DNA of 64,000 nt from a virus (IMGVR_UViG_3300032320_000838:13760-77759), one strand, 5' to 3'. Shown: positions 1 through 22,858, counted from the stretch's first letter. Numbers and translations are program-made. Notes: a model not told the origin generated them from the sequence alone.

Positions 1-232
1 ACGATTGATTGTATAGCGTTTGATCAAGACCCACACGAAGACGAAAATCGTCCGATGCTTCTAGCGGAATCACGGTGCGTGTTCCAAGAACATCGCCAGG
101 ATCTGCCTCTGTTGAGAGTTGCACGAAACCCGCATTGATTTCTGTCTGTGGAGTCACTACTTGTAACTCGTATGTTGCACTGACATTCGCAAGACCCGCC
201 GAATTGTTTCCACCTTTAATTTGAACGCCCAT
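1..232 (-). CDS. Hypothetical, probably virion-associated protein; 5' part only, runs off the window start; not in the ORF track
   Basis: ATG at 232, with GGAG (241-244) directly after the stop of the 833-aa gene. Open for 77 codons to the window edge: MGVQIKGGNNSAGLANVSATYELQVVTPQTEINAGFVQLSTEADPGDVLGTRTVIPLEASDDFRLRVGLDQTLYNQS. Confidence 0.75.
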   Translation of the reverse strand, partial: MGVQIKGGNNSAGLANVSATYELQVVTPQTEINAGFVQLSTEADPGDVLGTRTVIPLEASDDFRLRVGLDQTLYNQS

Positions 233-244
233 TATCAATTCTCC

Positions 245-2746
245 TTATTGTGCAAAGCACTTTACTGTATATTTTCCGTATGTTCCGTTTGGTGCGTAAC
301 CTATTATATCGAATCCTGTACCAACTACAAGATTATTTATCTCGAATTTGACTTCTTCTAATACTGCATCCTCTACATCGTGATCAGTTGATGTTCCGCC
401 AAGAAGTCTACATGATATGCAAGAATCAGATGCAACCCAAGACTGTCCTGTTACTGTTTTAACAACATAAGTTTCTGGTTTATGATATAAATTAATATTT
501 GTTATTGAAGTCCAATATTCTAAAGGAACAGTTGGAGTTTGAATATAAACAGCATTTATAGTTTCAGCAATAACACCTTCCGCAGTTGTGCTTGTACCAC
601 CAACAAATGGTGGTTTTATTACTAATCTTGCTGACCACCCATTTGTATCATCATAAAATGATTCGATACTTTCTAACTCACATGAGATGTAGGATGCTGT
701 TCCCGTATCTATTGTTACTGGGGTATTTTCAATACCATATTTTTCTATATTTTGCAAAGAGGTATTAAAATCTACACCTAAACCATATATTGTTAATTGT
801 ATTTGATTAATGTTTACTGAAAAATCAACGGTTTGTGTCGTGGAAGTAGATACCACGGTCTGTGCAGTTAATCTTCCACCGACAGTAAGCGAATCTGTTG
901 TTTTATTATAAGTAAGACCAGAATCACCACCAAGAGAGGTTCCACCATCATTAAACTGAACCTGAGTATTAGATCCTGCTGCTCCAGCGGACGCGCTGGC
1001 CCAAGAAAGCGTACCCGAACCATTTGTGGTCAATACCTGTCCATTACTTCCATTAGTGGTTGGGAAGGTATATAAACCAGTTCCCGTATCAAATGTAATT
1101 GTTCCTGCACTATCATTAACTGTCAATATAGTGCTGTTGCCCACACCATCAACATCACCTATTTGAATAGGACTACCTGATGTATTACACTTGATATTCA
1201 TTCCGTTAGCAGAACCATCTGTAAGATTGGAATAGAATAACATTCCAGAACCAGTTCTTGAGAATGATATGTTTCCGTTACAGAGATTTATTACAGCACC
1301 GTTGGCATTTGTTCCAAGATTTACGGTGGTTGCAGCGGCGGTTCCCACATTGATAGTGGTTGCATTATTGTTGTACAAAGATGCCGAGCCTGTGGTAGTT
1401 GTTGTAATATCTCCACCGTTTACTGCAATATCTCCAGCAAGTGTAACACTGTCGGTTGTCTTGTTGTAAGTGAAACCGGCATCACCACCAAAAGTGCTAC
1501 CATCATTAAACTGTACATAAGTATCAGAACCACCAGGCGAACCAGAACCAGATACAGTCGCCCACTGTAGGGTTGCATCATTTCCTGCAACTGAAGCAAT
1601 CTGCAATACTTGATTTGCAGATCCTACTGCGGATGGAAGCGTATAGATGTTGTTGTTAGATACTGTTGCTGGAGCCTGAAAGGCGACATAGTTGGAGGAA
1701 TCTGAATCAGCAAGACGCAAATCTCCCTGCGAACCTATCTGTAGGTTCGTACCGTCAAAAATTAGATCAGCATCACCCTTGAGGTTCTTAGTACCACTGT
1801 CATAGAACTGAATTTGCTGATTTGTAGGAGATGCCATAACACCAACAGTTCCACCAGCATCTGGTAGAGTGATCGTCCTATCAGCAGTAGGATCCTCGAC
1901 AGTTAATGTGGTTTCGTTAGTATTGTTCGTTGCTCCTTCAAATATGATGTTTACAGGAGTAAAAGTAGCATCATCTGCTGTCTTTCGAGCAAGAAAAAGA
2001 TCTCCACCAGCAATCTCGACTACACCTGTTGCTCCATCTGTATTCTCCACAGTAATAGAGGGAATGCTTCCTTGGAACAAAATACCCGTAGTGGGTGCAA
2101 GAATAACCTCACCATAAGGAGATATGGTTATATGATTGGTAGATCCGCTATTTGTAACTACACTGGATGCTGTGTTTCCTAATGTTAAAGTAGCATTTCT
2201 TATTGCAGCAGTTCCGCTCGTTGCTCCCATCGTCAGAGTGGTTGCAGCACCACCAACACTTAAATTAGTAACGGTAGTATTGAAGACCGTAGCAGTGGTG
2301 GCACTTGTGGTTATGTCACCACCGTTTACTGCTAAATCTAATGTAGTTGTGAGATTGTTCCTCACCAGTGTAGTGCCAGTGGTTGCACCAAAAGTCAGAG
2401 TGGTTGCGCTACGAAATGCTGTAGCGTTGGTTATGGACGCACCATCAAGCAAGGCAACAGTGGATGCCGTACTAGTAATATCTCCACCGTTGACGGCGAG
2501 ATCACCAGTAACAGTCAGAGTATCCGTTGTCTTGTTGTATGTAAGACCCGAATCGCCACCCATCACTCCACCATCATTAAACTGTACTTGAGTATCGGAA
2601 CCGCCAGGAGCAGAACCAATAAGATCGCCGCTACCACCAGCATTACCGATGTATATTCTTTTGTTAGTGGTGTCTACTGCCAACTCGTATTCAGTCAGTC
2701 CTGTAGATGGTGCTCCCGATCCTCGTTTTGGTTTGATAGTTGCCAT
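245..2746 (-). CDS. Tail/virion fibre-like protein, 833 aa, with Mtd-N-like head and a distinct C-terminal cap domain
   Basis: Thr/Gly/Ser-rich beta-repeat composition. N-terminus MATIKPKRGSGAPSTGLTEYELAVDTTNKRIYIG. Three QVQFNDG-x-GGD[SA]G[LF]TYNKTTD repeats and three [LI]AVNGGDIT repeats. SD GGAG upstream. Confidence 0.75.
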   Translation of the reverse strand: MATIKPKRGSGAPSTGLTEYELAVDTTNKRIYIGNAGGSGDLIGSAPGGSDTQVQFNDGGVMGGDSGLTYNKTTDTLTVTGDLAVNGGDITSTASTVALLDGASITNATAFRSATTLTFGATTGTTLVRNNLTTTLDLAVNGGDITTSATTATVFNTTVTNLSVGGAATTLTMGATSGTAAIRNATLTLGNTASSVVTNSGSTNHITISPYGEVILAPTTGILFQGSIPSITVENTDGATGVVEIAGGDLFLARKTADDATFTPVNIIFEGATNNTNETTLTVEDPTADRTITLPDAGGTVGVMASPTNQQIQFYDSGTKNLKGDADLIFDGTNLQIGSQGDLRLADSDSSNYVAFQAPATVSNNNIYTLPSAVGSANQVLQIASVAGNDATLQWATVSGSGSPGGSDTYVQFNDGSTFGGDAGFTYNKTTDSVTLAGDIAVNGGDITTTTTGSASLYNNNATTINVGTAAATTVNLGTNANGAVINLCNGNISFSRTGSGMLFYSNLTDGSANGMNIKCNTSGSPIQIGDVDGVGNSTILTVNDSAGTITFDTGTGLYTFPTTNGSNGQVLTTNGSGTLSWASASAGAAGSNTQVQFNDGGTSLGGDSGLTYNKTTDSLTVGGRLTAQTVVSTSTTQTVDFSVNINQIQLTIYGLGVDFNTSLQNIEKYGIENTPVTIDTGTASYISCELESIESFYDDTNGWSARLVIKPPFVGGTSTTAEGVIAETINAVYIQTPTVPLEYWTSITNINLYHKPETYVVKTVTGQSWVASDSCISCRLLGGTSTDHDVEDAVLEEVKFEINNLVVGTGFDIIGYAPNGTYGKYTVKCFAQ

Positions 2747-2772
2747 TATTTCTCCAGAATATAAAGATCAAA

Positions 2773-2991
2773 TCAGTATGTCTGACCGTCTAGTGATTCT
2801 TCCTTCTTCTTGGACTTCTTTTGTCCTTCTACCTTTGCTTGCAGTGCTTCAACCTTTGCCTGTAGATCTCTGTTTTTGGCCTGTTCTACAAGCAAATTTA
2901 CTTCCAAAACAAGATTGTTATTCACAAGATCTTGATATTTCTTCTGTAAGACAGGTATGACTACTGTTTCACTATAGTTCACTTCGCTCAT
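2773..2991 (-). CDS. Small coiled-coil protein, 72 aa, ending in LDGQTY
   Basis: SD AAGGAG. Heptad pattern LEVNLLVEQAKNRDLQAKVEALQAKVE. The C-terminus matches the tail motif of neighbouring fibre genes. Confidence 0.75.
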   Translation of the reverse strand: MSEVNYSETVVIPVLQKKYQDLVNNNLVLEVNLLVEQAKNRDLQAKVEALQAKVEGQKKSKKKEESLDGQTY

Positions 2992-3009
2992 TATAAATCT
3001 CCTTTACAT

Positions 3010-3016
3010 TATGTAT
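3010..3016 (-). promoter_or_regulatory. Putative late promoter variant (ATACATA)
   Basis: One mismatch from ATAAATA, intergenic, just upstream of the SD of the 72-aa gene. The same variant occurs upstream of gp18. Confidence 0.45.
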
Positions 3017-4392
3017 CAGAAGGTTCCACCATCCACGATGGCTTCTACTTTATAGGCAGTCAAAACACCAGTGGAAGGAACATAAGAAAGAACAGAAAGA
3101 CCTGCTTGAGCAGTGGCATCAATCTTAAGAGCACCAGAAGCACCAGAAGCAGCAAATGTCAGATAAAGAGCAGTGTTGTCGGAAGAAGTTGCTTCAGTCA
3201 GTCCGACATTAGTTGCTGTTGTTGCAGTGGTCGCTGTTGTAGCAGAACCTACCGAAAGAGAGGACTGAGAGGTCCAAGTCGGAGCAGCGGCTCCAGCAGA
3301 TGTGAGAACTTGTCCAGATGTGCCAGCGGCAGATATTGCCATTGCAGATGCGGTAGAATAAACCACACCACCGTTTACTGCTGTGAGAGATGCATTCGTA
3401 CCACCGTGAGAAAGTCCAACATCAGTTGCTTCCCAAGTACCAGTACCGATTGTACCAACAGATGTTAGAGAAGATGCAGTCACACCAGAACCAAGTGTAT
3501 TCGAGGAAAGAACACTTGTTCCGTTGATGTAATACGCCTTACCAGAAGCAAGATTGAGATGCTCGGAAGAAGTCCAAGCATCAGTGGCATCTACCCAGTT
3601 AAATGTCTTATCGGTTGCACCCTTAAGAGTAATACCACCACCATCAGCAGTAAGATCAGAAGGTGTGGCCACATCTCCGATTATAACATTCTTGTCTTCC
3701 ACGACCAGATTGGTTGTGTTAATATTTGTTGTCGTACCATTTACAGTCAAATCACCGCTAAGGGTGAGTCCTACTGCTGTGATTACACCAGTGCTTGGGT
3801 TATAAGAAAGTGGTGTGGTGGTGTCATCGACATACAGAGTAGAACCAGATCCAGCAGTGGTAGACATCACCAAATATCTGGTGGTGTTGGTGTTGTCTGA
3901 AGTTGTGGTTACGGTTGTAGCAGAAGAAGCATCCGCCCAAGACAATTGAGATATATTAGAAGAAGGAACAGCAGCGGAAAGAACTTGTCCTGCTGTTGGA
4001 TCTGTGGTTGGCATCAAATATGTGATGTTTGTTGTTCTAGCAGAACCACGGAAAGCAGAGTAGTTAGAACCATCATCTGTATCTTCCAACAGACGGATTT
4101 CACCTGGCGCAGTTGCACCTTGTCCAAAGTTAACGACACCAGTGAAAGTTCCACCTGCCTTGGGCATAAAGGTGGTGTTGATGGCAGATTGTGTTGCTAG
4201 TTTTACTGCACTTGTCCAATCGCCAGGAGAGGTCTCGATTTGAGCACCAACCCAGATCGGAGTCGTTGTACCATCATCTGCGGTTTTCAGCCAGATCTTG
4301 GGTGTACTGGTATTCGCTGCCAACTCACCAGAGTTGGTTACATTTGCTGCTGTAGGATCGGTTGTACCTCTTTTGATTCTAATTGTAGCCAT
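3016..4392 (-). CDS. Fibre-like protein, 458 aa
   Basis: MATIRIKRGTTDP...GELA head (Mtd-N-like). VEDKNVIIG...TADGGGITLKGATDKT module. Ends IVDGGTF. Confidence 0.75.
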   Translation of the reverse strand: MATIRIKRGTTDPTAANVTNSGELAANTSTPKIWLKTADDGTTTPIWVGAQIETSPGDWTSAVKLATQSAINTTFMPKAGGTFTGVVNFGQGATAPGEIRLLEDTDDGSNYSAFRGSARTTNITYLMPTTDPTAGQVLSAAVPSSNISQLSWADASSATTVTTTSDNTNTTRYLVMSTTAGSGSTLYVDDTTTPLSYNPSTGVITAVGLTLSGDLTVNGTTTNINTTNLVVEDKNVIIGDVATPSDLTADGGGITLKGATDKTFNWVDATDAWTSSEHLNLASGKAYYINGTSVLSSNTLGSGVTASSLTSVGTIGTGTWEATDVGLSHGGTNASLTAVNGGVVYSTASAMAISAAGTSGQVLTSAGAAAPTWTSQSSLSVGSATTATTATTATNVGLTEATSSDNTALYLTFAASGASGALKIDATAQAGLSVLSYVPSTGVLTAYKVEAIVDGGTF

Positions 4393-4407
4393 TTTCCACT
4401 CCTAATT

Positions 4408-5223
4408 TTAGAAAGTCCCACCATCCATAACCATATTTTCACCCAGATATTCCAATTCAGCGTCTGTTCCGCCCCGAACCCCGACATCAGTTTCCAAATA
4501 TCCAGAAACTATGAGGTTCCCTGTTATGTATATGTTTCCGTCACCCCCTGCAACCAAGTTAGTAACTCCGCCAATACTACCATTACCAACACTAAAATTC
4601 ATTTCTAATGTATTTGATAGATTGATTTGTTGAGATTGAATGTTTAAAGGACAGGTTATTGTACCTATTACCAATTCTTCTGTCGGTGCAATTATTACAT
4701 TTGAACCATTTATATAAACCTTGGAATTTAAACCTTCCGTGTCTATTTTTAAAATATCTATTTTAACACCCGATGCATTCTGTAAAGTACTCATTCTAAA
4801 TGCATTTGGATTATTGTCTTGTAGAGATATTCCAAAAAACTCGTCATTTGAACCATCATATAACGAGGTAGACAAACCAAGATACATACCACTTCTTAGT
4901 AAATTCTGTAATGTGATCAAATCTGTAGTACCAGTGGAAACATCTAGAAAAGGCAACTTGTCTGCTTTATTGATACTCGTGTCTGTTCTCGTTATTGTAA
5001 ACAAATCTAAGTTGAGATTGTTGTTGGTGTTTATATTAACACCCTCACCGCTACTGTAAACATCCGCAGTGAAATTGTAATCCGAAATCAAAGCAGGGGA
5101 TGCAGTACCATCACCGATCCAGATCTTCTTGTCTGGAATGTTTACTGCCATTTCACCCATTTCTAGATCAGTAGGTATTACTCCAGAGGTAGTGGAACGC
5201 TTGGTTCTTAATACTACGGACAT
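4408..5223 (-). CDS. Fibre-associated protein, 271 aa
   Basis: LRTKRSTTSGVIPTDLEMGEMAVNIPDKKIWIGDG head (Mtd-N/hyaluronidase-N-like). Ends MVMDGGTF. Confidence 0.7.
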   Translation of the reverse strand: MSVVLRTKRSTTSGVIPTDLEMGEMAVNIPDKKIWIGDGTASPALISDYNFTADVYSSGEGVNINTNNNLNLDLFTITRTDTSINKADKLPFLDVSTGTTDLITLQNLLRSGMYLGLSTSLYDGSNDEFFGISLQDNNPNAFRMSTLQNASGVKIDILKIDTEGLNSKVYINGSNVIIAPTEELVIGTITCPLNIQSQQINLSNTLEMNFSVGNGSIGGVTNLVAGGDGNIYITGNLIVSGYLETDVGVRGGTDAELEYLGENMVMDGGTF

Positions 5224-6398
5224 CAGTAGAACCCTCCATCTATGTCTATATCACCCACAGTAGCGGTTCCTGTGACTGTCAGATCTCCGTATATGGTAGT
5301 TGCAGTTATTCCATCAGTGGAACCATCACCAATCTCTATGAGTTCTGCTGCACCACCGATACTCAGATCTGTTATGTTTGTGTCGAAGATAGAGGCGGCA
5401 CCCGTCAAACTGCTTTTAATAGTCGCAGGATACGATACGCTTGCTTCTGTATATGGGGTTATATCAATATAACTTTCTATACCTATTGGAGAAAGAAATG
5501 TCTGCTTTCCTTTTGTTGCACCATCAGATCCGAGTAGAGCGACTTTTGCTCCCGCTGTGTCCGCAAGATAGGCATTAAACGCAGCAAATGATTGTACAAA
5601 TCCCAACTGTACGGTTGCTGGCTCTGCGCCGTTTGCAGCATATACTGTCTTAGAACACAAGAAATAGTAAACACCACCACCAGAATTGCCTGGAACCCAT
5701 ATGTCGCCATCATTTCCAGTTTGGTCGGGAAAACAATACTTTAAAGAAGCAGTAACTCTGTTTGCAAAATTGCTGTTAAAAGTAGTAACACTGTCACCAG
5801 ATGAAACACCACCATTCGCATTAGTCCATGCACCAAATTCTATAAATTCTCTATTGGTGCCGGTAGTATCGGGTTGGGCCGTATCCGTAAGATCGAGTTT
5901 TCTTTCATATACACGCAAAGGCATCGCTGAAATTGCCTTCTGTGTGACCAAGACATAATCAGAAGGTCTATTCCAATCTGCCTTTAGAACAACAAAATTT
6001 CCATTAGATCCACCATCCTCTTTTTGAGGATAATACGCTCGTATCTCTGCACCGACCCAGAGAGGTCTTGTCTGATCAACATTTGTCGCTGGACTACCAG
6101 TGTAAGGATAGGCATTAGTATACTGAGAATTATCGAATGTAGTATCGCTTTCAGCGGTTCCTCCATTAGTCGAACCAAAACTGTCCATACCCAACCACAA
6201 ACGATTAGGATAGTTGTTTTTTGCGAAACCAGTAAGACCGGTAGTTGATCTATAAAACTCAGACAACCCCACTATCTGAGCGGCAGGCATACCCTTAAGC
6301 AATACCTTTGCGTCAGTATCAGGATCTGTATTATCCTGTGTGTAATCGTACGGCATCACAGAGCCGCGCTTGAGTAGTAGATTACCAGTTCCTGCCAT
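5223..6398 (-). CDS. Fibre-like protein, 391 aa, paralogue of the 1068-aa protein N-terminus
   Basis: MAGTGNLLLKRG, NYPNRLW, LWVGAEIRA and DWNRPSDYVLVTQKAI blocks are shared with the 1068-aa ORF. Ends IDIDGGFY. TGATG coupling to the next gene. Confidence 0.7.
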   Translation of the reverse strand: MAGTGNLLLKRGSVMPYDYTQDNTDPDTDAKVLLKGMPAAQIVGLSEFYRSTTGLTGFAKNNYPNRLWLGMDSFGSTNGGTAESDTTFDNSQYTNAYPYTGSPATNVDQTRPLWVGAEIRAYYPQKEDGGSNGNFVVLKADWNRPSDYVLVTQKAISAMPLRVYERKLDLTDTAQPDTTGTNREFIEFGAWTNANGGVSSGDSVTTFNSNFANRVTASLKYCFPDQTGNDGDIWVPGNSGGGVYYFLCSKTVYAANGAEPATVQLGFVQSFAAFNAYLADTAGAKVALLGSDGATKGKQTFLSPIGIESYIDITPYTEASVSYPATIKSSLTGAASIFDTNITDLSIGGAAELIEIGDGSTDGITATTIYGDLTVTGTATVGDIDIDGGFY

Positions 6399-6431
6399 TA
6401 TTCATCCTATAGAGTTCGAAGGAAACAGAAG

Positions 6432-6438
6432 TATTTAG
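6432..6438 (-). promoter_or_regulatory. Putative gp55-dependent late promoter (CTAAATA)
   Basis: Intergenic, about 35 nt upstream of the 391-aa ATG. Confidence 0.6.
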
Positions 6439-6445
6439 TTAAGTA

Positions 6446-9400
6446 TCAGGTGTATGATCCGCAATCCAAAGTTGCTCCGATGTAGTCGCAGTAGAGAGTT
6501 CCTGTCCCATTACCGACCTCATAAAACAGACCAGTGCTTGAATTTGTTGGAGCAGATGGTGTACTTTGCATAGTCGCGTTGGTCGCATCTGTAAACAGGT
6601 AAGCAGTGGCTGTATTACCATCCGCAGACAAACCACTCCAAGAAGAAGCAGGATTATTATCAGAACTGGAACCCAAGAAAGGAACAGGATACTTAGTAGT
6701 GGTAGCGTTTGATTCTGTTCTTACAGTTACTGTACTTGCAGAAGAACTACCCCAAGACAAATTACCAGAACCATCATTAGTCAGAACAGTGTTTGCACCA
6801 CCCTGTGCTGCTGGCAAAGACAAAGTATACGATGTAGTGATTGCGTTTGGATTGATTGTAATATTTCCACTTGTGCTCCCATATAACTTTAAAGTTGTTT
6901 TATTCAGAACAATATCATCCACAACAGTAAAAGATTTACCGCTTGCGATACTGAAGTGCTCAGAAGACCTCCAAACACCTGTAGTACCTGATATAGAAGT
7001 GTTGTTCCACAATAAAGTTTTATCAGTTGTACCTTTGAGAGTAATACCACCACCATCTGCTGTAGTGGCATCATTAGGAGTGGTGACAGATCCAATTTCG
7101 ATATTTTTGTCATCTACTGTTAAAGTCGTGGAATTTACTGTTGTTGTTGTTCCCTCGACAACAAGATTACCTTTAACATTTACTGTCGCGCCAGTGGATC
7201 CACCACCAAGATTAATAGTAGCAGTACTTGAACCAATATTTACTGTTGTGGCCGCGCCTCCGAGATTAAGGGTAGTGGCATTCGCGTTAAACACATTCGC
7301 TGTAGGGGCATTAGTGTTGATAGTCGCAGATCCGCTACCAGTGGCGCCTCTGATGTTAAGACTACTACTTCCACCTGTTTTTCCTATATTTACTACAGCA
7401 CTATCATCACCCAAATGAATAGTGCTTGCACCACCAGTATTTGTTGTTGCTGATGTGCTACTTGTTCCTATTCTTACTACAGTTGCTGTTGTTGCAAACA
7501 AACTCGCTTCAGAAGTCGTTGTCGTGATATCCGCGCTTGTTGCTCCGTTTACGGCAAGATCACCACCAACACTTGCACTACCAGCGATAGCAACAGTACC
7601 TGAAGCATTACCTATATTCATACCCGATGTTGCACCACCACCGATATTGACTGTAACGGCATTAGTATTAAATAGTGTTGCAGTACCAGTTGATGTAGTT
7701 GTGATGTCTCCACCATTTACGGCAAGATCACCCGTCATAGTCAATTTATCAGTAGACGGATTGTATGTGATACCATCAGAACTGTCTATAGAAAGACCAA
7801 GAGTACCGCCGGACAAAGCAAGTGGTCCTAATACCAAGTTATATTCTGCGTTATCACTTACTTCAGTTCCGCTAACAGTGGAAGCATTACCAGTAGATGC
7901 CCAAGTAAGAGCACCCGAAGTACCACTCGCAACAAGAGCATAACCGCTAGTACCAGATGGAGCATCTGGTAATGTCAGAGTGTAAGAAGAAGCAACCGAA
8001 TCTGGTGACTTTATACCAACATATTGACTTCCATTTCCAGATGCTTCGAACAGTTGGACGGTTTTTGTAGTAGCACCTCCACCAATCTTAAGATCACTGG
8101 CAACGGCAACAATACCAGAACTATTTCCAATATTAACAGCAGTAGTAGCACCACCACCAAAGTTTATTGTAGTTGCCGTACTGTTCAGAAGACTCACAGT
8201 ACTATTACTTGTTCCTAATGTGTTTCCTATATTTACGACACCATCAAGTGTGAATGTTGTTGTGGAGTCATTAAACGAGAAAGAAGAAGAACCCAAAAGA
8301 TTTCTTGTCGTTGTATCGTAATATGGTATTCTACCATCAGTCAAGGCGGTAGATGTATCAAGAACACCCACAGTACCAGAAGCATTAGGCAAAGTTATTG
8401 TTCTATCAGCAGTAGGATCCTCGACAGTCAATGTCGTTTCAGAACCATCAGCAGTTGTTCCTTCGAATATTATATTTACTGGAGTAGAGGCTCCACCATC
8501 TGTTATTATTTTATTTCCTAGATAAAGATCACCACCTTCAATATTGACAAACTGATTATTTGTTCCCGATAATTGACCAGGCATTACAGTTAAAGTTGGT
8601 CTTGTACTACCGTCAACAGTAGCCTGACTTCCTCTTATCACAGTACCATTACCACCAGAAGCATTTATTTCTAAAGTATTGTTATTTCCTATTTTTTCGG
8701 TAGTCAATCCTGATGCACCATTAAGAATCATAGCATTAGTTGTGATGGTGTTTGTGCTTGGATTGTATGTAAGATCAGTATCGGTTCTTACATTTTCATT
8801 TCCTGTAGCGGCATCAACAAATGTGATATAGTGTGTGGCGTTTGTGCTGTTTGTTGCCGTTAGTTTTATATTTGTCGCAGATACTGTAGCAGAACCTGTG
8901 GAAGTGGTTACAGAAATATCTCCACCAAGCACACCGAGAGCAGTACCTATAGTGAAATTTCTGGTAACATTCGAATTAGAGATATCAACACCAGACAAAA
9001 AATCACCAACAGCAGGTGAGGGTTCGGTAGTAAGTTCGGATAAATCCAAACTAAAAGTAACTGTGTCACCAGAAACAGCAGTATCTACACCAGTTCCGCC
9101 AGTCAGGGTTAATGTGTCACTATCGACTATGGTTGTAGTGGTAGAACCATCAGAAACAGTAAACGAAGACATAGATCCAGCACCCAAAGTAGTGGTGGCC
9201 CAAGTATGAATTGCTTTCTGTGTGACGAGAACATAATCGGAGGGATTGTCCCAATCTGCTCGCATTACTACTGGTGAATCGGGAGGTGTATTGCTATTAG
9301 AATCACCGGTCGCATATACAGCGGTATCTGCTCTGATTTCAGCACCCATCCAAAGAGAACGATTGTTTCCACCAGTCGGTAGACCGTAAGGCATACTACC

Positions 9401-9652
9401 TATCGTACCACCAGGTCCAGTACCCGCTTCCGAAGAAGTAGAACCATAACCTTCAACACCAACCCAAAGACGATTTGGATAATTATCATACGCAAATGGT
9501 CCAGAAGCACTACCAGCACTGTTAGAAGGTCTAGATAAACCCATAATTTGAACAGCAGGCATACCATTTATAAGAGAAATGGTTGCGCTATTTTGTGCGG
9601 TAAGTGGCGTTGTCGTACCGCGCTTAAGAATTAAATTACCAGTTCCAGCCAT
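6446..9652 (-). CDS. Long tail-fibre-like protein, 1068 aa
   Basis: Thr/Gly/Ser-rich, built from modules shared with the 833-, 458- and 391-aa ORFs. Starts MAGTGNLILKRG, ends TLDCGSYT. Confidence 0.8.
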   Translation of the reverse strand: MAGTGNLILKRGTTTPLTAQNSATISLINGMPAVQIMGLSRPSNSAGSASGPFAYDNYPNRLWVGVEGYGSTSSEAGTGPGGTIGSMPYGLPTGGNNRSLWMGAEIRADTAVYATGDSNSNTPPDSPVVMRADWDNPSDYVLVTQKAIHTWATTTLGAGSMSSFTVSDGSTTTTIVDSDTLTLTGGTGVDTAVSGDTVTFSLDLSELTTEPSPAVGDFLSGVDISNSNVTRNFTIGTALGVLGGDISVTTSTGSATVSATNIKLTATNSTNATHYITFVDAATGNENVRTDTDLTYNPSTNTITTNAMILNGASGLTTEKIGNNNTLEINASGGNGTVIRGSQATVDGSTRPTLTVMPGQLSGTNNQFVNIEGGDLYLGNKIITDGGASTPVNIIFEGTTADGSETTLTVEDPTADRTITLPNASGTVGVLDTSTALTDGRIPYYDTTTRNLLGSSSFSFNDSTTTFTLDGVVNIGNTLGTSNSTVSLLNSTATTINFGGGATTAVNIGNSSGIVAVASDLKIGGGATTKTVQLFEASGNGSQYVGIKSPDSVASSYTLTLPDAPSGTSGYALVASGTSGALTWASTGNASTVSGTEVSDNAEYNLVLGPLALSGGTLGLSIDSSDGITYNPSTDKLTMTGDLAVNGGDITTTSTGTATLFNTNAVTVNIGGGATSGMNIGNASGTVAIAGSASVGGDLAVNGATSADITTTTSEASLFATTATVVRIGTSSTSATTNTGGASTIHLGDDSAVVNIGKTGGSSSLNIRGATGSGSATINTNAPTANVFNANATTLNLGGAATTVNIGSSTATINLGGGSTGATVNVKGNLVVEGTTTTVNSTTLTVDDKNIEIGSVTTPNDATTADGGGITLKGTTDKTLLWNNTSISGTTGVWRSSEHFSIASGKSFTVVDDIVLNKTTLKLYGSTSGNITINPNAITTSYTLSLPAAQGGANTVLTNDGSGNLSWGSSSASTVTVRTESNATTTKYPVPFLGSSSDNNPASSWSGLSADGNTATAYLFTDATNATMQSTPSAPTNSSTGLFYEVGNGTGTLYCDYIGATLDCGSYT

Positions 9653-9675
9653 ATTCTAACCCCTTTGCGAAAAAG

Positions 9676-10071
9676 TCAGTAGTTTCCACAATCCATCAAC
9701 ATACCGTTTCCAAGATATTCCAACGCTTCATCCGTTCCACCACGAATACCTGTGTCCGTCTCCAGATAGCCAGTGAGTATGATGTTTGCATCTATATGTA
9801 TATTTCCAAAAGCATCTGGTATTAACATAATAACCTGACGCCAATTGGCATTATCTGTCCCCCCAATCAGAGTATAGAAAGCATTATTTGTACTTTCATA
9901 CACCATCATTCCAACCTGTCTACGATCACTGGATATACCTTCTCTTTCCGTCGAATCGACCACAGTGCGTAGACCACCAAGACCATACTTCGGGTTGGTT
10001 ACTGGGTAAGTGTCCAACTCCGAAGTTGGTGCAATCGGTGCAGCAACTGTGACGGTATTCGTGATTGGCAT
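9676..10071 (-). CDS. Virion/fibre-associated protein, 131 aa
   Basis: YPVTNPKYGLGGLRTV...RRQVGMMVYE block typical of phage fibre-associated domains. The last ~35 aa are near-identical to the end of the 271-aa ORF. Ends MLMDCGNY. Confidence 0.65.
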   Translation of the reverse strand: MPITNTVTVAAPIAPTSELDTYPVTNPKYGLGGLRTVVDSTEREGISSDRRQVGMMVYESTNNAFYTLIGGTDNANWRQVIMLIPDAFGNIHIDANIILTGYLETDTGIRGGTDEALEYLGNGMLMDCGNY

Positions 10072-10072
10072 A

Positions 10073-11080
10073 TCAGGTTATATTCAGAGTGAAATCTCCA
10101 TTAAGTTGATTAGTGGACTTGTATACCCTATAGGTAGAACTCGCTCCAGATGCATTCGTAAAGGTATAACTGGAAGAAACCAGAGGAAATGCTGGTGTCT
10201 GATCGGTCGTTCCTATGGATATGGATGTTATTGGGTTTAGGGAAGTGTGAACAAAAATATACACATATCCAGATCCTGCGGTAAGAGAAATACCAGATGC
10301 AGCAGGAGATGAACTGGAAGTGATGAACTGACTTGTTCCGTTGCTCAACTGTGCGTGATTTGTGATTGTAGTATGGTCGCTACTTGTGTTCTTACCGACA
10401 TAGATCTTGCTTCTCCAAGAAATCGTCTGTGTACGAGTTGCCGCGGATCCTTCTTCCTGTGCAACACTTATTGTGTATATCAAGGTAGAACCAACTGTCG
10501 TAGTGGTTATTGCTGGAGGGTTCACGGATACGGATCCAGATGATGCTGGATTTGCACCACTCAAAACGCTACCAGAAAACCCACCAGAGTACACATATGT
10601 GATGTTTGTTCCCGTTGCAGTTGCGTTGGAGATGTTCTGCAAACTCCAAGTAGGATTCAAGGCAGTAGTGGGAGATGTCTGTCCTATCTCAAATACAGTC
10701 TGAGAATAGTTCATACTGAAAGATGACACGGATACTGCCAGATATGGATACAATATCCTCTCAAGAATGTCTATTGCAGTAAGACCAGTTAGAACATCAC
10801 CCTGCTCAACACCACCTAATGTGATGTACACTGGTTCTGGGTTTGTCCAAGTTTCCGCTACTATTCCTGCGATATTATCAGCATACAGGGTTCCGCAACG
10901 AAGAATATCGACCTTGGATATGTCGTTGGTTATGATCGCTGCGTTAGGTAGTAGCGTTCCTTGTTGATCATAACCTCGCAATAGTTGACGCATTTCCGAG
11001 ATTGTAGGTCTCGGTGCATCGGGTATTGGGAAGGGCTGAGCAACTCCATTTCTTACGATGTAGTTTTGTCTCTCAGCCAT
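10073..11080 (-). CDS. Putative structural protein, 335 aa, beta-rich/Ig-like
   Basis: SD GAGGTG. Ser/Thr-rich. TWTNPEP...LGGVEQG...ILERILYPY motif. Sits in the fibre cluster. Confidence 0.6.
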   Translation of the reverse strand: MAERQNYIVRNGVAQPFPIPDAPRPTISEMRQLLRGYDQQGTLLPNAAIITNDISKVDILRCGTLYADNIAGIVAETWTNPEPVYITLGGVEQGDVLTGLTAIDILERILYPYLAVSVSSFSMNYSQTVFEIGQTSPTTALNPTWSLQNISNATATGTNITYVYSGGFSGSVLSGANPASSGSVSVNPPAITTTTVGSTLIYTISVAQEEGSAATRTQTISWRSKIYVGKNTSSDHTTITNHAQLSNGTSQFITSSSSPAASGISLTAGSGYVYIFVHTSLNPITSISIGTTDQTPAFPLVSSSYTFTNASGASSTYRVYKSTNQLNGDFTLNIT

Positions 11081-11083
11081 TTA

Positions 11084-11203
11084 TCACCTCGTATATACTA
11101 TACTCGTTTTGTTGCTCTGTATTTTGACCTTGAACACATTCACTTGATCCCTGACAGGTGTTATTTTAGGACGGACCTGCTCCGTTATTTTTATCTTGTT
11201 CAC
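11084..11203 (-). CDS. Small 39-aa ORF, not in the ORF track
   Basis: GTG start overlaps the TGA of the 129-aa gene (GTGA) and has GGAGG upstream. Fills the 119-nt gap. MNKIKITEQVRPKITPVRDQVNVFKVKIQSNKTSIVYTR. Confidence 0.6.
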   Translation of the reverse strand: MNKIKITEQVRPKITPVRDQVNVFKVKIQSNKTSIVYTR

Positions 11204-11589
11204 GGAGCCTCCACCACGAATCTACCCTTCAGCAAACAATCCACCACATCGGTACTTGTTTCCAAAAACAGGTAGTAGAAATAAGGACCAGGATAAACAG
11301 TAGTCATCGTTTCGGTGCTGATGGTGATAGTCACCTCTTCACCAGAAACCAAAATTGTTCCATAGGATCCTACAAGTGGTAAAGACAAATAACCTTCTTC
11401 GATATTGTCATCATAAGACAACTCAAAGAGATTCTTTTCCTGCGGAATGGCAGATCTTCTCACCACAAATCTTACATTTTCATATGTGGGGAGAATATCC
11501 AAAGCAGTATCATCACTTCCAAAGTACTGGAAAGCGATGGTATACTCAGAACCCTGTTCGGCATAAATGTCGTGTATTCCTGCAAGCAT
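11200..11589 (-). CDS. Beta-sandwich virion protein, 129 aa (BppU/fibre-adaptor-like)
   Basis: MLAGIHDIYAEQGSEYTIAF start and YFYYLFL...CLLKGRFVVE end are typical of this phage beta-sandwich family. Coupled to regA by TGATG. Confidence 0.55.
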   Translation of the reverse strand: MLAGIHDIYAEQGSEYTIAFQYFGSDDTALDILPTYENVRFVVRRSAIPQEKNLFELSYDDNIEEGYLSLPLVGSYGTILVSGEEVTITISTETMTTVYPGPYFYYLFLETSTDVVDCLLKGRFVVEAP

Positions 11590-12419: not shown

Positions 12420-13369
12420 TTAAAGTTGCACTCCATCATCAACTGAACGATGCAAGCGGTGAGATTAATCTCGTGATCCGCAACAAATGCTGCTTTGTAC
12501 TGATAGTCGGCAATAATCAGAATGGCAGGAGGAATACTAGAAGGTTCCAAGTTCTCCTGTAGAGCATCATACATCTTTCGGAAGATATGTGAAGTATCGT
12601 TGTCTAGGTTCATCGTCACCCACTTACGAACATCCTGAAAGTTCTTACCCTTCATCGCCTTGATCAGTTCCTCTACGGCAATATCCCCCGCTTCGGACAG
12701 AATACCGACATCAACAGAACCTGAACGAGAATACCGCTGTAGTTCGTTGATAAGCCTACGGAAGTCGGGCGAATGCTTGACGATGAGTTTTGCAAGAACC
12801 TTCTCATCGAACTCCACCTTCTCGGAAGTGAGAATGAACTTTGCACGATCCATAAACTTGGATGCAAACTTCATCTTCTCCTTGCTGTCGAACTTAAAGT
12901 CGATGCAAGTGCAACGAGAATGAAGGGGTTCGATCACTCGGTTCTTGAAGTTGCAAGTGAGAATGAACCTACAGTTCTTGGAGAACTCCTCCATAAACCC
13001 ACGAAGAGCGGGTTGCATCGACTGTGGATTAGCATAATCAAACTCGTCTAGGATCACCGCTTTCTTGTTTCCAGAGATGGAAATACTACTGGCAAACTGA
13101 CGAATCTTTGTTCGCAGTGTGTCAATGTTTCCATCCTCAGAGCAGTTGATGAGGATCCAATCCGTGTTTAGTTCGTTGCAGAGTGCCTTTGCTACTGTGG
13201 TCTTGCCGCAACCAGGTCCACCAGACAGGAGAAGATTCTGGAGTTCACCAGAATCAACGATCTCCTGAAAGGTGTTCTTGAGGTTGTCGGGAAGAATGCA
13301 ATCGACAATCCGCTGTGGGCGATACTTCTCCACCCACAGGTAATTTGCGTTGTCTGTAATCATAATCAC
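12416..13369 (-). CDS. gp44: Clamp loader AAA+ subunit
   Basis: LWVEKYRP, Walker A GGPGCGKTT, Walker B ILDEFD, FILTCN...IEPLHSRC. Confidence 0.97.
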   Translation of the reverse strand: MIMITDNANYLWVEKYRPQRIVDCILPDNLKNTFQEIVDSGELQNLLLSGGPGCGKTTVAKALCNELNTDWILINCSEDGNIDTLRTKIRQFASSISISGNKKAVILDEFDYANPQSMQPALRGFMEEFSKNCRFILTCNFKNRVIEPLHSRCTCIDFKFDSKEKMKFASKFMDRAKFILTSEKVEFDEKVLAKLIVKHSPDFRRLINELQRYSRSGSVDVGILSEAGDIAVEELIKAMKGKNFQDVRKWVTMNLDNDTSHIFRKMYDALQENLEPSSIPPAILIIADYQYKAAFVADHEINLTACIVQLMMECNFK

Positions 13370-14067
13370 TTATTAAAGTTAGAGTCGGCTTCGAGAGCGA
13401 TCCAATAGTTTAGGTTCATCGACTGGTTGCTGAACTTACTTACAACCTTCTCACAGATCTCCACATCATAATCACCAGTGAGCAACTTGAGGTTCTCGAT
13501 CTTGAAGAACATCTCAAACGAGTTGGAACCTTCATATTCACCTACACCGATGGAATATGTGTTGCTGCTTACATCTGCCTTATCAAGGGCAGTCATACTG
13601 ATCAGAGTTCCATCATTAGTTACGGAAATATCAGACACCTGAAGAACGGATGCTGCCTTCTGCAACTCCGCAAACTTCTTCTGTGTCAGAGTGAAGTTGA
13701 TGGCAGTAGATGGCATGTTGATCTTCTTGGTCGGAACAGTGAGCAACTTTGGTTCGCAGTAGTGATACTTGACCGAACCGTTGCTGCCGCTGATGCGAAC
13801 ATACTTCTCCTCAAACTCGAACTCTGGATCATTAAACAAGGAAACCACACCAAGGAACTTGTTCAGATCCCAAATACCAAACTCGGTGTCAAAGGTTTCT
13901 TCCACGGTTGCTTCTGCCAAGACATTCTTGACGGGAGAGATAGTGGTGATCTTGTTGCCTGGATGAACAAGAATGTTGGAGTTGATGGACGCAAAGTTCT
14001 TAAGGATGTCTAGTGTCTTCTTGGAAATTTTCATCGCTGTTGTTGTGCTCATAATATATTTCTCCAA
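13366..14067 (-). CDS. gp45: Sliding clamp; likely start at 14052
   Basis: MKISKKTLDILKNFASINSNI...FGIWDLNKFL...FKIENLKLLTGDYDV...YWIALEADS. GGAG 9 nt before the ATG at 14052. Confidence 0.95.
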   Translation of the reverse strand: MEKYIMSTTTAMKISKKTLDILKNFASINSNILVHPGNKITTISPVKNVLAEATVEETFDTEFGIWDLNKFLGVVSLFNDPEFEFEEKYVRISGSNGSVKYHYCEPKLLTVPTKKINMPSTAINFTLTQKKFAELQKAASVLQVSDISVTNDGTLISMTALDKADVSSNTYSIGVGEYEGSNSFEMFFKIENLKLLTGDYDVEICEKVVSKFSNQSMNLNYWIALEADSNFNK

Positions 14068-21783: not shown

Positions 21784-22305
21784 TCACTTCTTGTGTTTTT
21801 TATCTTCGTGATGTGGTTTGTGTGGTCGTCTTTTCATAGAAATCTTACGACGACGATTTGCTTGCGAACGCTTTCTTCTTGCTTTTCTGGCAGCACGGCG
21901 TGCTCTTCTCTTCATTTTCATCAGATCTCTGGAAGATCTCTTCGCACACCTACGACCTATCTTCTTCTGCCCTGGAGGGCACTTAAAGATGATCCTTCTC
22001 TTACCCTTGCGAATGACGACTTTTCTTTTGGCAGATGCTTCCATCAAATCGGATGCGGAAGCAGTATCTAGTTCATAATCTTCCAGTTCTTCCAATACTT
22101 CGTCAATCGGATCATATACTTCCACACCCTCTTCGATTATACCATATGCGAAGTCGTTTTCCTCAAGAAAAATAGTAAGTTCTTCCACAGGAATAGTATC
22201 GGAAACCAAGATCACGCGATCATCTGTTTCTACGATTTCCAGTAGACCAGTGTTTTCACGCAACTGGTGTAACTTGTGCATTTCCTCTTGTAACTTGTAG
22301 CGCAT
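21784..22305 (-). CDS. Putative prohead core protein (gp68-like): acidic N-half, extremely basic C-tail
   Basis: Acidic N-domain, L-x-E site (DLME/ASA), then KRKVVIRKGKRR...KRRARRAARKARRKRSQANRRRKISMKRR. Same architecture as T4 gp68. Confidence 0.55.
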   Translation of the reverse strand: MRYKLQEEMHKLHQLRENTGLLEIVETDDRVILVSDTIPVEELTIFLEENDFAYGIIEEGVEVYDPIDEVLEELEDYELDTASASDLMEASAKRKVVIRKGKRRIIFKCPPGQKKIGRRCAKRSSRDLMKMKRRARRAARKARRKRSQANRRRKISMKRRPHKPHHEDKKHKK

Positions 22306-22858
22306 TTAGACCCTCGGTATACCAGTCAGGAACATTACCCATCTTCCACTTAGCGAAGCGGGACTTCTCATTTATGTAGTATTGGCGATACGCTGTGACA
22401 GGATCTGGATCCTTGTATTGTGGCGGCATTGCCTGTGGAAACTCTGTGAGAATATTATGCTTGTGATGAACAAACATCTTTGGAGTATGGATCAAATAGT
22501 CCCAATATAGAGATTCCATCTTGTGTACTTTACCGTAACGCGCAGTGTATTCTTGCAATAATTGCATACCGTGACGACACAACCACTTGTAGTTTTCCCG
22601 TGTCTCTATACACCAAGCAGTGCAGGGGTGATTTGGCATAACCGCTTTACATAGAATATTGTCCCATTCTGCATCTGGCATAACATATTTCTTATACTTT
22701 CTACCAGAAGCAGAAGTGCTATTCAGAGGCACACCGTCAAGTACACGGTGTGCGGTGGAAAGCATCTGGGCGGTTTCCACGATCATCTTGACCACATGCT
22801 TGTCGCACATCTGTTTAGCAGCAATATAAGGATCATTGGCCAATACAAAGATATTCAT
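22256..22858 (-). CDS. Pyrimidine dimer DNA glycosylase / endonuclease V-related protein
   Basis: MNIFVL..DP..AA..MCDKHVVKMIVETAQMLSTAH...NHPCT.W...NY.WL...FPQAMP.QYK..DPV.AYR.YY..EK. Confidence 0.8.
   Translation of the reverse strand: MNIFVLANDPYIAAKQMCDKHVVKMIVETAQMLSTAHRVLDGVPLNSTSASGRKYKKYVMPDAEWDNILCKAVMPNHPCTAWCIETRENYKWLCRHGMQLLQEYTARYGKVHKMESLYWDYLIHTPKMFVHHKHNILTEFPQAMPPQYKDPDPVTAYRQYYINEKSRFAKWKMGNVPDWYTEGLNALQVTRGNAQVTPVA

What the first reader, a model, noticed from the sequence alone, without database searches (positions are those of the whole stretch)
245..10071. Candidate head-to-tail 'hook-and-socket' modular fibre system
Seen in the sequence: six consecutive genes end in the same tail, [ILMV]-D-[GC]-[GQ]-x-[FY]. 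These are 131 aa MDCGNY, 1068 aa LDCGSY(T), 391 aa IDGGFY, 271 aa MDGGTF, 458 aa VDGGTF and 72 aa LDGQTY. Five genes start with a shared head, hydrophobic-x-x-K-R-[GS] (1068 LILKRG, 391 LLLKRG, 271 LRTKRS, 458 IRIKRG, 833 IKPKRG), followed in three of them by an E-[LM]-A-hydrophobic...K-[IR]-[WY]-[IL] block. The distribution is asymmetric: 131 and 72 aa have only the tail, four genes have both, and 833 aa has only the head plus a unique C-terminal cap. Established: the head resembles the N-terminal domain of Bordetella phage Mtd, which docks Mtd trimers onto the fibre. Inference: the tail is a docking peptide for the head domain of the next subunit. The phage would then build chained or branched fibres from initiator, extender and cap subunits, tuning length or host range by subunit choice.
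Basis: partly seen in the sequence, partly recalled or inferred. Interest (0 to 1): 0.88.

Follow-up and report, generated by a model that had tools for sequence, protein, structure and literature searches.

The report
Long tail fibre split into plug-together pieces
An uncultured marine T4-like phage encodes seven neighbouring fibre proteins that probably join end to end. Each would use the same kind of joint that links gp36 to gp37 in the phage T4 long tail fibre, here repeated five times and marked by a six-residue tail and a small start domain.

Summary
In the 77.8-kb contig exactly six ORFs end in h-D-[G/C]-[G/Q]-x-[F/Y], and all six are consecutive (0.002-0.01 expected by chance). Five consecutive ORFs start with h-x-x-K-R-[G/S].

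Three heads (271, 458 and 833 aa) are homologous to the N-terminus of T-even gp37, the distal long-tail-fibre subunit. They are not significantly related to Mtd. T4 gp36 binds the N-terminal region of gp37, ends in ...QDFGYY (the same tail pattern), and is encoded just upstream of gene 37.

The cluster is therefore best read as a long tail fibre split into six or seven products, joined by repeated gp36C-gp37N-type joints.

A tail-only DNA search of IMG/VR shows the grammar is widespread:
- 83% of informative tails have a head gene within 3 kb downstream.
- Gene order is directional (tail-only then head-only 30 times, reverse 2).
- Tail subtypes match the subtype of the next head.
- A complete cultured genome has exactly two tails and two heads, in the row T|HT|H.
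- Fused proteins carry a tail-like motif directly before an internal head.

Binding itself was not tested, because the complex predictor was closed. The scan noted this pairing before on other DNA (giant viruses, phages). Verdict: a new variant of a known kind.

The parts
9676..10071 (-). 131-aa tail-only adaptor. Residues 1-82 form an N-domain; the C-terminal ~48 residues form a connector domain ending MDCGNY.
   Evidence: The ORF and tail are seen. The N-domain is shared with the N-termini of collagen-like fibres in L013-L020. The AF2 model gives pLDDT 79-92 for residues 30-100 and below 50 for 108-131. The C-terminal domain is 56-64% identical to that of the 271-aa protein.
6446..9652 (-). 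1068-aa fibre segment with a type III head (MAGTGNLILKRG, an N-domain of about 160 aa) and the tail LDCGSYT.
   Evidence: The head type is shared with the 391-aa protein and with L003, L004 and L007. In 8 of 8 non-redundant cases it is preceded by a D-C-G tail. The shaft matches PHROG virion structural protein families.
5223..6398 (-). 391-aa fibre segment with a type III head and the tail IDGGFY.
   Evidence: Its own head is type III, but its tail is the D-G-G type, matching the type I head of the next gene.
4408..5223 (-). 271-aa fibre segment with a gp37-N-type head (residues 1-46) and a C-terminal connector domain ending MDGGTF.
   Evidence: An independent head HMM scores it 44.5 bits. hhalign of the head profile against T4 gp37 gives 97.8% probability. 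Against the L003 and L004 orthologues the head is 78% identical, the tail 100% and the middle 36%.
3016..4392 (-). 458-aa fibre segment with a gp37-N-type head (residues 1-42) and the tail VDGGTF.
   Evidence: The head HMM scores it 31.7 bits. The central part matches cyanophage virion structural proteins. The ends are 90-98% conserved against 59-63% for the middle.
2773..2991 (-). 72-aa helical (coiled-coil-like) protein with a lysine-rich C-terminal stretch and the tail LDGQTY.
   Evidence: AF2 predicts one helix over residues 6-70, with pLDDT 93-97 for residues 10-50 and 56-59 for the last 20. Similar small helical genes sit between tail genes and head genes in many contigs, mostly without a tail.
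245..2746 (-). 833-aa terminal segment with a gp37-N-type head (residues 1-44), a repeat shaft, a unique C-terminal region and no tail.
   Evidence: The head HMM scores it 32.2 bits. The head is 84% identical to the orthologues, while the last 30 residues are 7% identical. A PHROG tail fibre family matches.

Best explanation
The seven genes most likely encode the segments of one long tail fibre, or a small number of them. The segments would join head to tail through repeated copies of the joint that links gp36 to gp37 in the T4 long tail fibre.

Each joint has two halves.
- The upstream half is the extreme C-terminus of one trimer: hydrophobic-D-[G/C]-G-x-[F/Y], followed by the free carboxylate.
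- The downstream half is the ~45-residue N-terminal domain of the next trimer: h-x-h-K-R-[G/S]...G-E-h-A-x-N...K-h-[WY]-h-G.

Gene order gives assembly order, proximal to distal:
1. The 131-aa protein is an adaptor. Its N-domain sits on the virion or trimerises, and its C-terminus offers the first tail.
2. The 1068-, 391-, 271- and 458-aa proteins are extenders with a head and a tail.
3. The 833-aa protein, with a head but no tail and a variable C-terminal region, is the distal, probably receptor-binding, end.

Tail subtype (D-C-G or D-G-G) is matched to the head subtype of the next gene, and this probably sets the order.

What is shown:
- the motifs themselves and their strictly terminal positions;
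- homology of three heads to the gp37 N-terminus;
- the directional gene grammar and the subtype matching across many phages.

What is taken from the literature: T4 gp36 binds the N-terminal region of gp37.

What is inferred:
- that the last six residues are the contact;
- that the chain is linear;
- the role of the 72-aa helical protein (chaperone, clamp or second anchor).
For: 1. Non-random, protein-level motifs at the termini.

2. Homology of the heads to gp37.
- tblastn of a survey head finds 255 phage records, mostly gp37 of T4-like coliphages.
- hhalign of the head profile against the T4 gp37 N-terminus gives probability 97.8%, E 6.7e-13.
- An HMM built only from 95 survey heads hits T4 gp37 residues 1-51 (46 bits) and the window's 271-, 833- and 458-aa proteins.

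3. The T4 precedent. T4 gp36 ends ...VQDFGYY and Acinetobacter phage PhT2 gp36 ends ...ILDFGTF, each directly upstream of a gp37 head. [quoted passage not shown]

4. A search that knew nothing of heads. The DNA pattern for h-DGGT[FY]-stop in IMG/VR gave 159 unique tails. Of these, 94 have a head gene directly downstream, 20 have one within 3 kb, 22 lie in truncated loci and 23 have none.

5. The converse. Of 139 non-redundant heads, 111 are directly preceded by a tail and 9 more by a tail with one small gene between.

6. Direction of gene order.
- Tail-only then head+tail: 45.
- Tail-only then head-only: 30.
- Head+tail then head-only: 32.
- Head-only then tail-only: 2.

7. Subtype matching.
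- G-G-N tails precede type II heads in 10 of 10 cases.
- C-G tails precede type III heads in 8 of 8.
- Type I heads follow G-G-T tails 42 times and G-G-N tails never.
- In the window, tail type follows the next head in 6 of 6 cases, not the protein's own head (the 391-aa protein).
- The 131-aa family carries D-C-G before type III heads and D-G-G before 458-type heads.

8. Whole-genome census of cultured phage Melnitz-3 (141 kb): exactly two heads and two strict tails, in the row gp185 (T), gp186 (HT), gp187 (H), all annotated as or lying beside tail fibres.

9. A non-adjacent pair. In podovirus-like contigs a 77-aa tail-only gene follows the nozzle gene, while the single head-bearing fibre gene lies elsewhere. 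This holds in 2 of 2 near-complete contigs.

10. Fused forms. Proteins with an internal head carry ...TIDGED...YIDGNEP...TIDANT or ...SLDFTF immediately before it.

11. Ends are more conserved than middles between orthologues.

12. Summed length is 3152 residues, close to T4 gp34+gp36+gp37 at 2536.
Against: - No direct test of binding was possible, and the T4 gp36-gp37 joint itself has no solved structure in the PDB copy. That the last residues make the contact is therefore an inference.
- None of the window proteins matches Pfam Phage_T4_gp36.
- The 1068- and 391-aa heads are not demonstrably related to the gp37 type.
- The window has six tails for five heads, so one tail (of the 458- or 72-aa protein) has no partner in the row.
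- 23 of 137 informative tails have no head gene within 3 kb. These include terminal head+tail fibres followed only by a coiled-coil gene and a neck gene.
- The tail resembles an internal repeat turn (…AVNGGDIT…) of the same shafts, so it could be a structural end-cap.
- A tail and the next head lie less than 100 bp apart, so subtype matching could partly reflect linkage and shared descent.
- The AF2 monomer model leaves the connector domain of the 131-aa protein at low confidence, which says nothing either way.
Confidence: 0.6

Rival explanations
1. The tail-head joints are real, but the assembly is branched or alternative rather than one linear chain. Under this reading the three type I heads (271, 458, 833 aa) compete for the four D-G-G tails. 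The 72-aa helical protein would act as a second anchor or a competitor, and virions would carry a mixture of fibres of different length and tip.
For: - There are six tails for five heads.
- Four D-G-G tails and three type I heads show no obvious further discrimination.
- Group B relatives carry two separate short rows: an 80-aa tail-only gene then a 549-aa head-only gene, and 135 aa, then 863-1003 aa, then 346-353 aa.
- Branched receptor-binding complexes are known in other phages (own knowledge: CBA120, G7C, KP32).
Against: - Strict collinearity of the gene row is kept in all relatives.
- Tail subtype follows the next head in 6 of 6 window cases.
- The T4 model is linear (PMC3004832).
Confidence: 0.2
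2. There is no tail-head contact. The five head-bearing proteins would be parallel, independent fibres that each attach to the virion through their N-terminal domain. The shared tail would be a generic C-terminal folding or trimerisation cap, or a tag read by a common chaperone. The row would have arisen by tandem duplication.
For: - The tail looks like the N-G-G turn of an internal shaft repeat.
- Some terminal fibres carry a tail with no head gene nearby.
- Small coiled-coil genes that could be chaperones lie beside many tail genes.
- The shafts share modules, with 73% DNA identity over 183 nt between the 833- and 1068-aa genes.
Against: - Tails occur on small proteins that are not fibres: the 72-aa helix, an 80-aa protein, the 77-aa podovirus protein and the 131-aa adaptor.
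- Gene order is strongly directional, 30 against 2.
- Tail subtype matches the next head, not the protein's own head.
- The complete Melnitz-3 genome has exactly two tails and two heads in a row.
- In fused proteins a tail-like motif abuts an internal head.
- The head is homologous to the part of gp37 that binds gp36.
Confidence: 0.15
3. The conserved gene ends are DNA-level recombination junctions that allow cassette exchange between fibre genes, and have no role in the proteins.
For: - Fibre genes are mosaics, and their ends are more conserved than their middles.
- Recombination between conserved motifs is known in T-even fibre loci (own knowledge: Tetart et al. 1998).
Against: - The junctions share no nucleotide identity beyond the motif codons, use different codons for the same residues, and have gaps of -1 to 47 nt.
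- The motif is kept across heads that are less than 55% identical.
Confidence: 0.03

Closest known systems
Phage T4 long tail fibre, gp36-gp37 joint (distal half-fibre)
   Same: - The head is homologous to the gp37 N-terminus.
- The upstream gene product ends in D-x-G-x-aromatic.
- The upstream gene encodes the proximal partner.
- Trimeric gp36 binds the N-terminal region of gp37 (PMC3004832).
- The total chain length is comparable.
   Different: - Here the joint is used five times in a row instead of once.
- There is no gp36 homologue (PF03903 not hit) and no recognised gp34 or gp35.
- Small tail-only adaptors (131 aa, 72 aa) supply tails.
- At least two matched tail and head subtypes exist in one phage.
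- The tail is D-G-G-x-[FY] or D-C-G-x-Y rather than D-F-G-x-[YF].
Bordetella phage BPP-1 tail fibre Bbp9 and Mtd (Pfam Mtd_N, PF18454)
   Same: - Bbp9 ends ...GLADLGGIA, and the next gene, mtd, starts MSTAVQFRGGT.
- True Mtd_N heads in survey loci L053 and L060 (L060 scores 39 bits on Pfam Mtd_N) follow D-G-G-T-[FY] tails.
- The sequence pattern is similar: a basic strand followed by a G-E-x-x-V hairpin.
   Different: - The window heads do not reach the Pfam threshold.
- The head profile does not match Mtd (probability 1.9%).
- Mtd is a terminal C-type-lectin receptor binder, not a chain extender.
T-even gp37 C-terminus and gp38 N-terminus, described as a lock-and-key pair
   Same: Subtypes of one terminus are invariably associated in genomes with subtypes of the partner's terminus, and this has been read as evidence of docking (PMC3157838). 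The same logic is used here for tail and head subtypes.
   Different: The domains differ and are unrelated, and there is one joint per fibre.
Branched receptor-binding complexes (KP32/K11 anchor-branch, CBA120 TSP1-4, G7C)
   Same: Several host-recognition proteins from neighbouring genes dock on one another through conserved N-terminal modules (own knowledge).
   Different: Those systems use T4 gp10-like or XD branching domains, not a C-terminal hexapeptide. No such domain was found here.

Membership tests
T4 gp37-type N-terminal joint domain | An N-terminal domain of about 45 residues homologous to the gp37 N-terminus. | tested here: met
   Met for the 271-, 458- and 833-aa proteins. An independent HMM scores them 44.5, 31.7 and 32.2 bits and also hits T4 gp37 residues 1-51. 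The head profile matches T4 gp37 at 97.8% probability.
T4 gp37-type N-terminal joint domain | The same homology for the 1068- and 391-aa heads. | tested here: not met
   The independent HMM does not hit them. The type III profile against the head profile gives probability 3%. Only the L-x-L-K-R-G strand and a possible G-M-P-A-A-Q-I equivalent of G-E-L-A-V-N-I are shared.
T4 gp36-gp37 joint | The upstream partner ends in D-x-G-x-aromatic at the free C-terminus and is encoded directly upstream. | tested here: met
   The pattern holds in T4, VR5 and PhT2 gp36, in six window genes and in 111 of 139 heads in the survey.
T4 gp36-gp37 joint | The upstream partner is a gp36 homologue (Pfam PF03903). 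| tested here: not met
   T4 gp36 hits PF03903 at 178 bits. No window protein hits it.
T4 gp36-gp37 joint | Physical binding of the upstream C-terminus to the downstream N-terminal domain. | not testable with these tools
There is no solved structure of gp36 or of the gp37 N-terminus.
Mtd_N (Pfam PF18454) | A score above the Pfam gathering threshold of 26.3 bits. | tested here: not met
   The 271-aa protein scores 16.6 bits and the 833-aa protein 15.8 bits; the others show no hit. BPP-1 Mtd scores 64 bits. The head profile against Mtd gives probability 1.9%.
Intramolecular chaperone / Peptidase_S74 C-terminal domain | A C-terminal domain of about 120 residues with a Pfam match. | tested here: not met
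   No Pfam hit was found on any of the seven proteins.
Branched RBP anchors (gp10-like or XD domains) | Presence of a recognisable branching domain. | tested here: not met
   No Pfam or PHROG match of that kind was found.
Collagen XV/XVIII-type trimerisation domain (N-domain of the 131-aa protein) | Fold similarity at a significant level. | tested here: inconclusive
   Foldseek gives E 0.13-0.3, probability 0.85-0.95 and target TM-score about 0.6. The same N-domain precedes collagen-like repeats in L013-L020.

The most novel reading that the evidence does not exclude
The hexapeptide tail and the gp37-N/Mtd_N-like head may form a general connector system for viral fibres, with an order-setting code. 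Matched subtypes (G-G-T with type I, G-G-N with type II, C-G with type III) would specify which segment plugs into which. Phages could then build fibres of chosen length and tip from small adaptors, extenders and caps. The head family has 26,465 clusters at 50% identity, so such a connector would be one of the commonest assembly interfaces in the virosphere, and I found no description of it.
Probability: 0.35. Interest if true: 0.8.

Novelty: new variant of a known kind. Interest (0 to 1): 0.62.

Why it matters
- The gp36-gp37 joint of T4 has been known biochemically for decades but has no atomic description. Reading it as a six-residue C-terminal tail plus a 45-residue head makes it directly testable by point mutants, peptides and multimer models.
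- It gives an annotation rule for thousands of unannotated small genes beside fibre genes, which can be read as tail-only adaptors.
- If the subtype matching is a real specificity code, it tells which fibre genes of an uncultured phage assemble together and in what order.
- It would also offer a natural plug-in point for swapping receptor-binding tips between phages in laboratory host-range work.

Tried and rejected
No structural test of the joint was made.
- I considered folding a read-through of the in-frame 271-to-458 junction as a single chain. I dropped it because the monomer tool returns no contacts and a trimeric interface cannot be judged from it.
- The search for related loci with the head alignment A3 failed for lack of a conserved stretch, so the head-first survey was replaced by counts on heads not selected by the pattern.
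- PDB sequence searches with head profiles A1, A3 and A6 found nothing meaningful.
- A search for longer proteins carrying the 131-aa connector domain found none, which is weak evidence.
- Residue-level mutual information between tails and next heads only recovered the subtype split.
- PHROG and Pfam gave nothing for the small coiled-coil proteins, the 77-aa podovirus adaptor or the 493-aa downstream gene.
- S-PM2 fibres p175-p177 lack both motifs, so the system is not general to cyanomyoviruses.
- There is no T4 late promoter consensus inside the cluster.
- One literature search was wasted on 'Mtd_N' matching mtDNA. Targeted searches found no description of the tail motif.

Full report
**Setting**

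The window is bases 13760-77759 of a 77,759-base IMG/VR virus contig, estimated 43% complete. It is a T4-like marine myovirus. The clamp loader gp44 is about 55% identical to those of Synechococcus myoviruses. The fibre row lies on the minus strand between regA/gp62/gp44/gp45 and the gp43/uvsX/gp41 block. No near-identical phage record exists in GenBank phages.

- Over the whole contig, 464 ORFs of at least 40 aa contain the tail pattern six times, all in the consecutive genes.
- The expectation from composition is 0.002-0.011.
- The head pattern marks the five consecutive genes; about 0.08 is expected.
- The six junctions use different codons for the same residues and have gaps from -1 to 47 nt. 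What is conserved is protein, not DNA.
- The 131- and 271-aa proteins share a whole C-terminal domain of about 48 residues, not only the last six.

**What the head is**

Pfam gives only sub-threshold Mtd_N hits for two of the five heads. The head turned out to be a gp37-type domain instead.
- A tblastn search with a typical head from the survey found 255 phage records. Most are the 'long tail fibre distal subunit' gp37 of T4-like coliphages and Acinetobacter phages, plus cyanophage tail fibres.
- A profile of 42 heads, including three from the window, matches the first 48 residues of T4 gp37 with hhalign probability 97.8%. It matches BPP-1 Mtd with only 1.9%.
- An HMM built from 95 survey heads alone, with no window or T4 sequence, scores T4 gp37 residues 1-51 at 46 bits. 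It scores the window's 271-, 833- and 458-aa proteins at 44.5, 32.2 and 31.7 bits.
- It does not hit the 1068- or 391-aa proteins. Their 160-residue N-domain is a separate subtype (type III) that shares only the L-x-L-K-R-G strand.
- The head family is very large: 26,465 clusters at E <= 0.001 in 1.84 billion representatives. In 149 of the best 150 hits the best-scoring match starts at residue 1-3.

**What the tail is**

- T4 gp36 ends ...VIKDSVQDFGYY. VR5 gp36 ends the same way, and PhT2 gp36 ends ...ILDFGTF. Each is encoded directly upstream of a gp37 head.
- These share with the window tails an Asp at -5, a Gly at -3 and an aromatic residue at -1.
- The window's grammar is therefore that of a known, experimentally established head-to-tail joint.
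- No structure of gp36 or of the gp37 N-terminus is in the PDB copy. A 2026 preprint models the distal rod only at low resolution.
- BPP-1 shows a looser version: fibre protein Bbp9 ends ...ADLGGIA and the next gene is mtd.

**How general the pairing is**

I searched IMG/VR with a DNA pattern for h-D-G-G-T-[FY]-stop only, which contains no information about heads.
- Nearly all hits are true C-termini of fibre-like ORFs.
- Of 159 unique tails, 94 have a head gene directly downstream, 20 have one within 3 kb, 22 lie in truncated loci and 23 have none.
- Conversely, of 139 non-redundant heads, 111 are directly preceded by a tail and 9 by a tail with one small gene between.
- Many of the preceding tails are variants the pattern did not select, such as N-G-G, A-G-x and E-G-G.
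- Order is directional. Tail-only then head-only occurs 30 times and the reverse twice. Random clustering of fibre genes would not give that.
- Heads were never internal in these loci.

**Subtype matching**

- G-G-N tails precede type II heads (…N-A-E-L-A-F…) in 10 of 10 non-redundant cases.
- C-G tails precede type III heads in 8 of 8.
- Type I heads follow G-G-T tails 42 times and G-G-N tails never.
- Within the window, the two D-C-G tails (131 and 1068 aa) precede the two type III heads, and the four D-G-G/Q tails precede type I heads.
- The 391-aa protein has a type III head of its own but a D-G-G tail, so the tail follows the next head, not its own.
- The 131-aa family carries D-C-G where a type III head follows, and D-G-G-T-Y in relatives where a 458-type head follows.
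- Trojet et al. used the same kind of invariant subtype association to argue for a lock-and-key fit of the gp37 C-terminus with the gp38 N-terminus (PMC3157838).
- The caveat is linkage. A tail and the next head lie less than 100 bp apart and may simply be inherited together.

**Three further lines bear on that caveat**

1. In podovirus-like contigs a 77-aa tail-only gene lies right after the nozzle gene, while the only head-bearing fibre gene lies kilobases away, after the capsid gene. Both near-complete contigs tested had such a head.
2. The complete genome of cultured Methylophilales phage Melnitz-3 (141,372 bases, 621 ORFs) has exactly two heads and two strict tails. They sit in the row gp185 (90 aa, tail only), gp186 (tail fibre, head and tail) and gp187 (tail fibre, head only). 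Cyanosiphovirus S-CBS2 shows gp050 (tail variant), gp051 (type II head, D-G-G-T-F tail) and gp052 (type I head).
3. Among the 150 best head representatives, five have a second, internal head. It is immediately preceded by ...TIDGED...YIDGNEP...TIDANT...TISGN or ...SLDFTF. In fused form the tail-like motif and the head are thus contiguous, as expected if they are neighbours in the folded fibre.

**Anatomy of the window's row**

- *131-aa protein.* Its N-domain (pLDDT 79-92) also heads collagen-like fibres in other marine phages and weakly resembles collagen XV/XVIII trimerisation domains. Its connector domain is not folded in the monomer model.
- *72-aa protein.* It is one long helix with a less confident lysine-rich end carrying the tail. 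Similar small helical genes lie between tail genes and head genes in many phages, usually without a tail. It may therefore be a chaperone or clamp rather than a chain member.
- *Orthologue comparison.* Ends are better conserved than middles. For the 271-aa protein the figures are 78% head, 100% tail and 36% middle. For the 458-aa protein they are 98%, 90% and about 60%. The C-terminus of the 833-aa protein is not conserved at all, as expected for a distal, host-recognising tip.
- *Size.* The six chain candidates sum to 3152 residues, against 2536 for T4 gp34+gp36+gp37.

**Limits**

- Six tails face five heads.
- 23 of 137 informative tails lack a nearby head. These include terminal fibres followed only by a coiled-coil and a neck gene.
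- The tail resembles the N-G-G turn of an internal shaft repeat.
- No gp36 homologue is present.
- S-PM2 fibres lack both motifs.
- I found no paper describing the tail motif in the library searched. That library omits most subscription journals.

**Earlier notes and verdict**

Earlier notes of this scan report the same D-G-G-tail-before-head pairing in giant viruses and other phages, with binding only predicted. My survey reproduces its recurrence in phages and adds the homology to gp37.

The docking reading is the best explanation, and it rests on T4 gp36-gp37 rather than on Mtd. This is a new variant of a known kind: an iterated, adaptor-initiated, subtype-matched version of the T4 distal fibre joint.

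Noticed in passing
window 2-238 (runs on to contig 12516-13997; L001:257-1738, minus strand): A 493-aa ORF lies directly after the 833-aa gene and has neither head nor tail and no Pfam or PHROG match. Its N-terminal ...DDFRLRVG...TLYN resembles ...DAFGRQRVSEPFTLFDS of a 403-aa protein that follows a head+tail fibre in L033, and of a truncated ORF at the start of the contig. It may be a fibre-associated tip or assembly protein family.
   Followed up: partly
window 9826-10071 (131-aa protein, residues 1-82); L013-L020: This N-domain is also the N-terminus of long collagen-like (G-x-y repeat) fibres in other marine viral contigs. The AF2 model weakly resembles the collagen XV/XVIII trimerisation domain (Foldseek E 0.13-0.3).
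   Followed up: partly
L025:9525-9758, L136:3174-3407 and about ten other survey loci: A 70-89-aa tail-only family (MSNYTKTT.F..KD.L.SG...) is encoded right after the nozzle (tubular B-like) gene of podovirus-like contigs, far from the single head-bearing fibre gene. It looks like a stand-alone fibre dock.
   Followed up: partly
L008:5537-5755, L023:3499-3747, L039:2531-2737, L076:3858-4070, L125:1813-2031 and window 2773-2991: Small (55-180 aa) helical proteins recur between a tail-bearing fibre gene and the next head-bearing gene, or before the neck gene. Only the window's lineage gives them a tail (LDGQTY, LDGSTY, LDADTY). No family match was found. They may be a gp57A-like chaperone or a joint clamp.
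   Followed up: partly
window 1838-2020 and 8363-8548 (contig 22122-22307, L002): The 833- and 1068-aa genes share a shaft module at 73% DNA identity over 183 nt. The repeat L-T-Y-N-x-x-T-x-x-L-T-V-x-G-D-L-A-V-N-G-G-D-I-T recurs in the 833-aa protein, and in diverged form in the 1068- and 458-aa proteins.
   Followed up: no
window 1-11589: About 12 kb of fibre and structural genes sit inside the replication module, between regA/gp62/gp44/gp45 and gp43/uvsX/gp41. This is an unusual place for a T4-like late gene block. No TATAAATA late promoter consensus lies within it.
   Followed up: no
L147 (Prochlorococcus phage P-SSM2, 214444-216727): The head-bearing tail-fibre-like protein PSSM2_293 is preceded by a putative endonuclease gene instead of a tail gene. 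This may be an insertion that split a tail-head gene pair.
   Followed up: no
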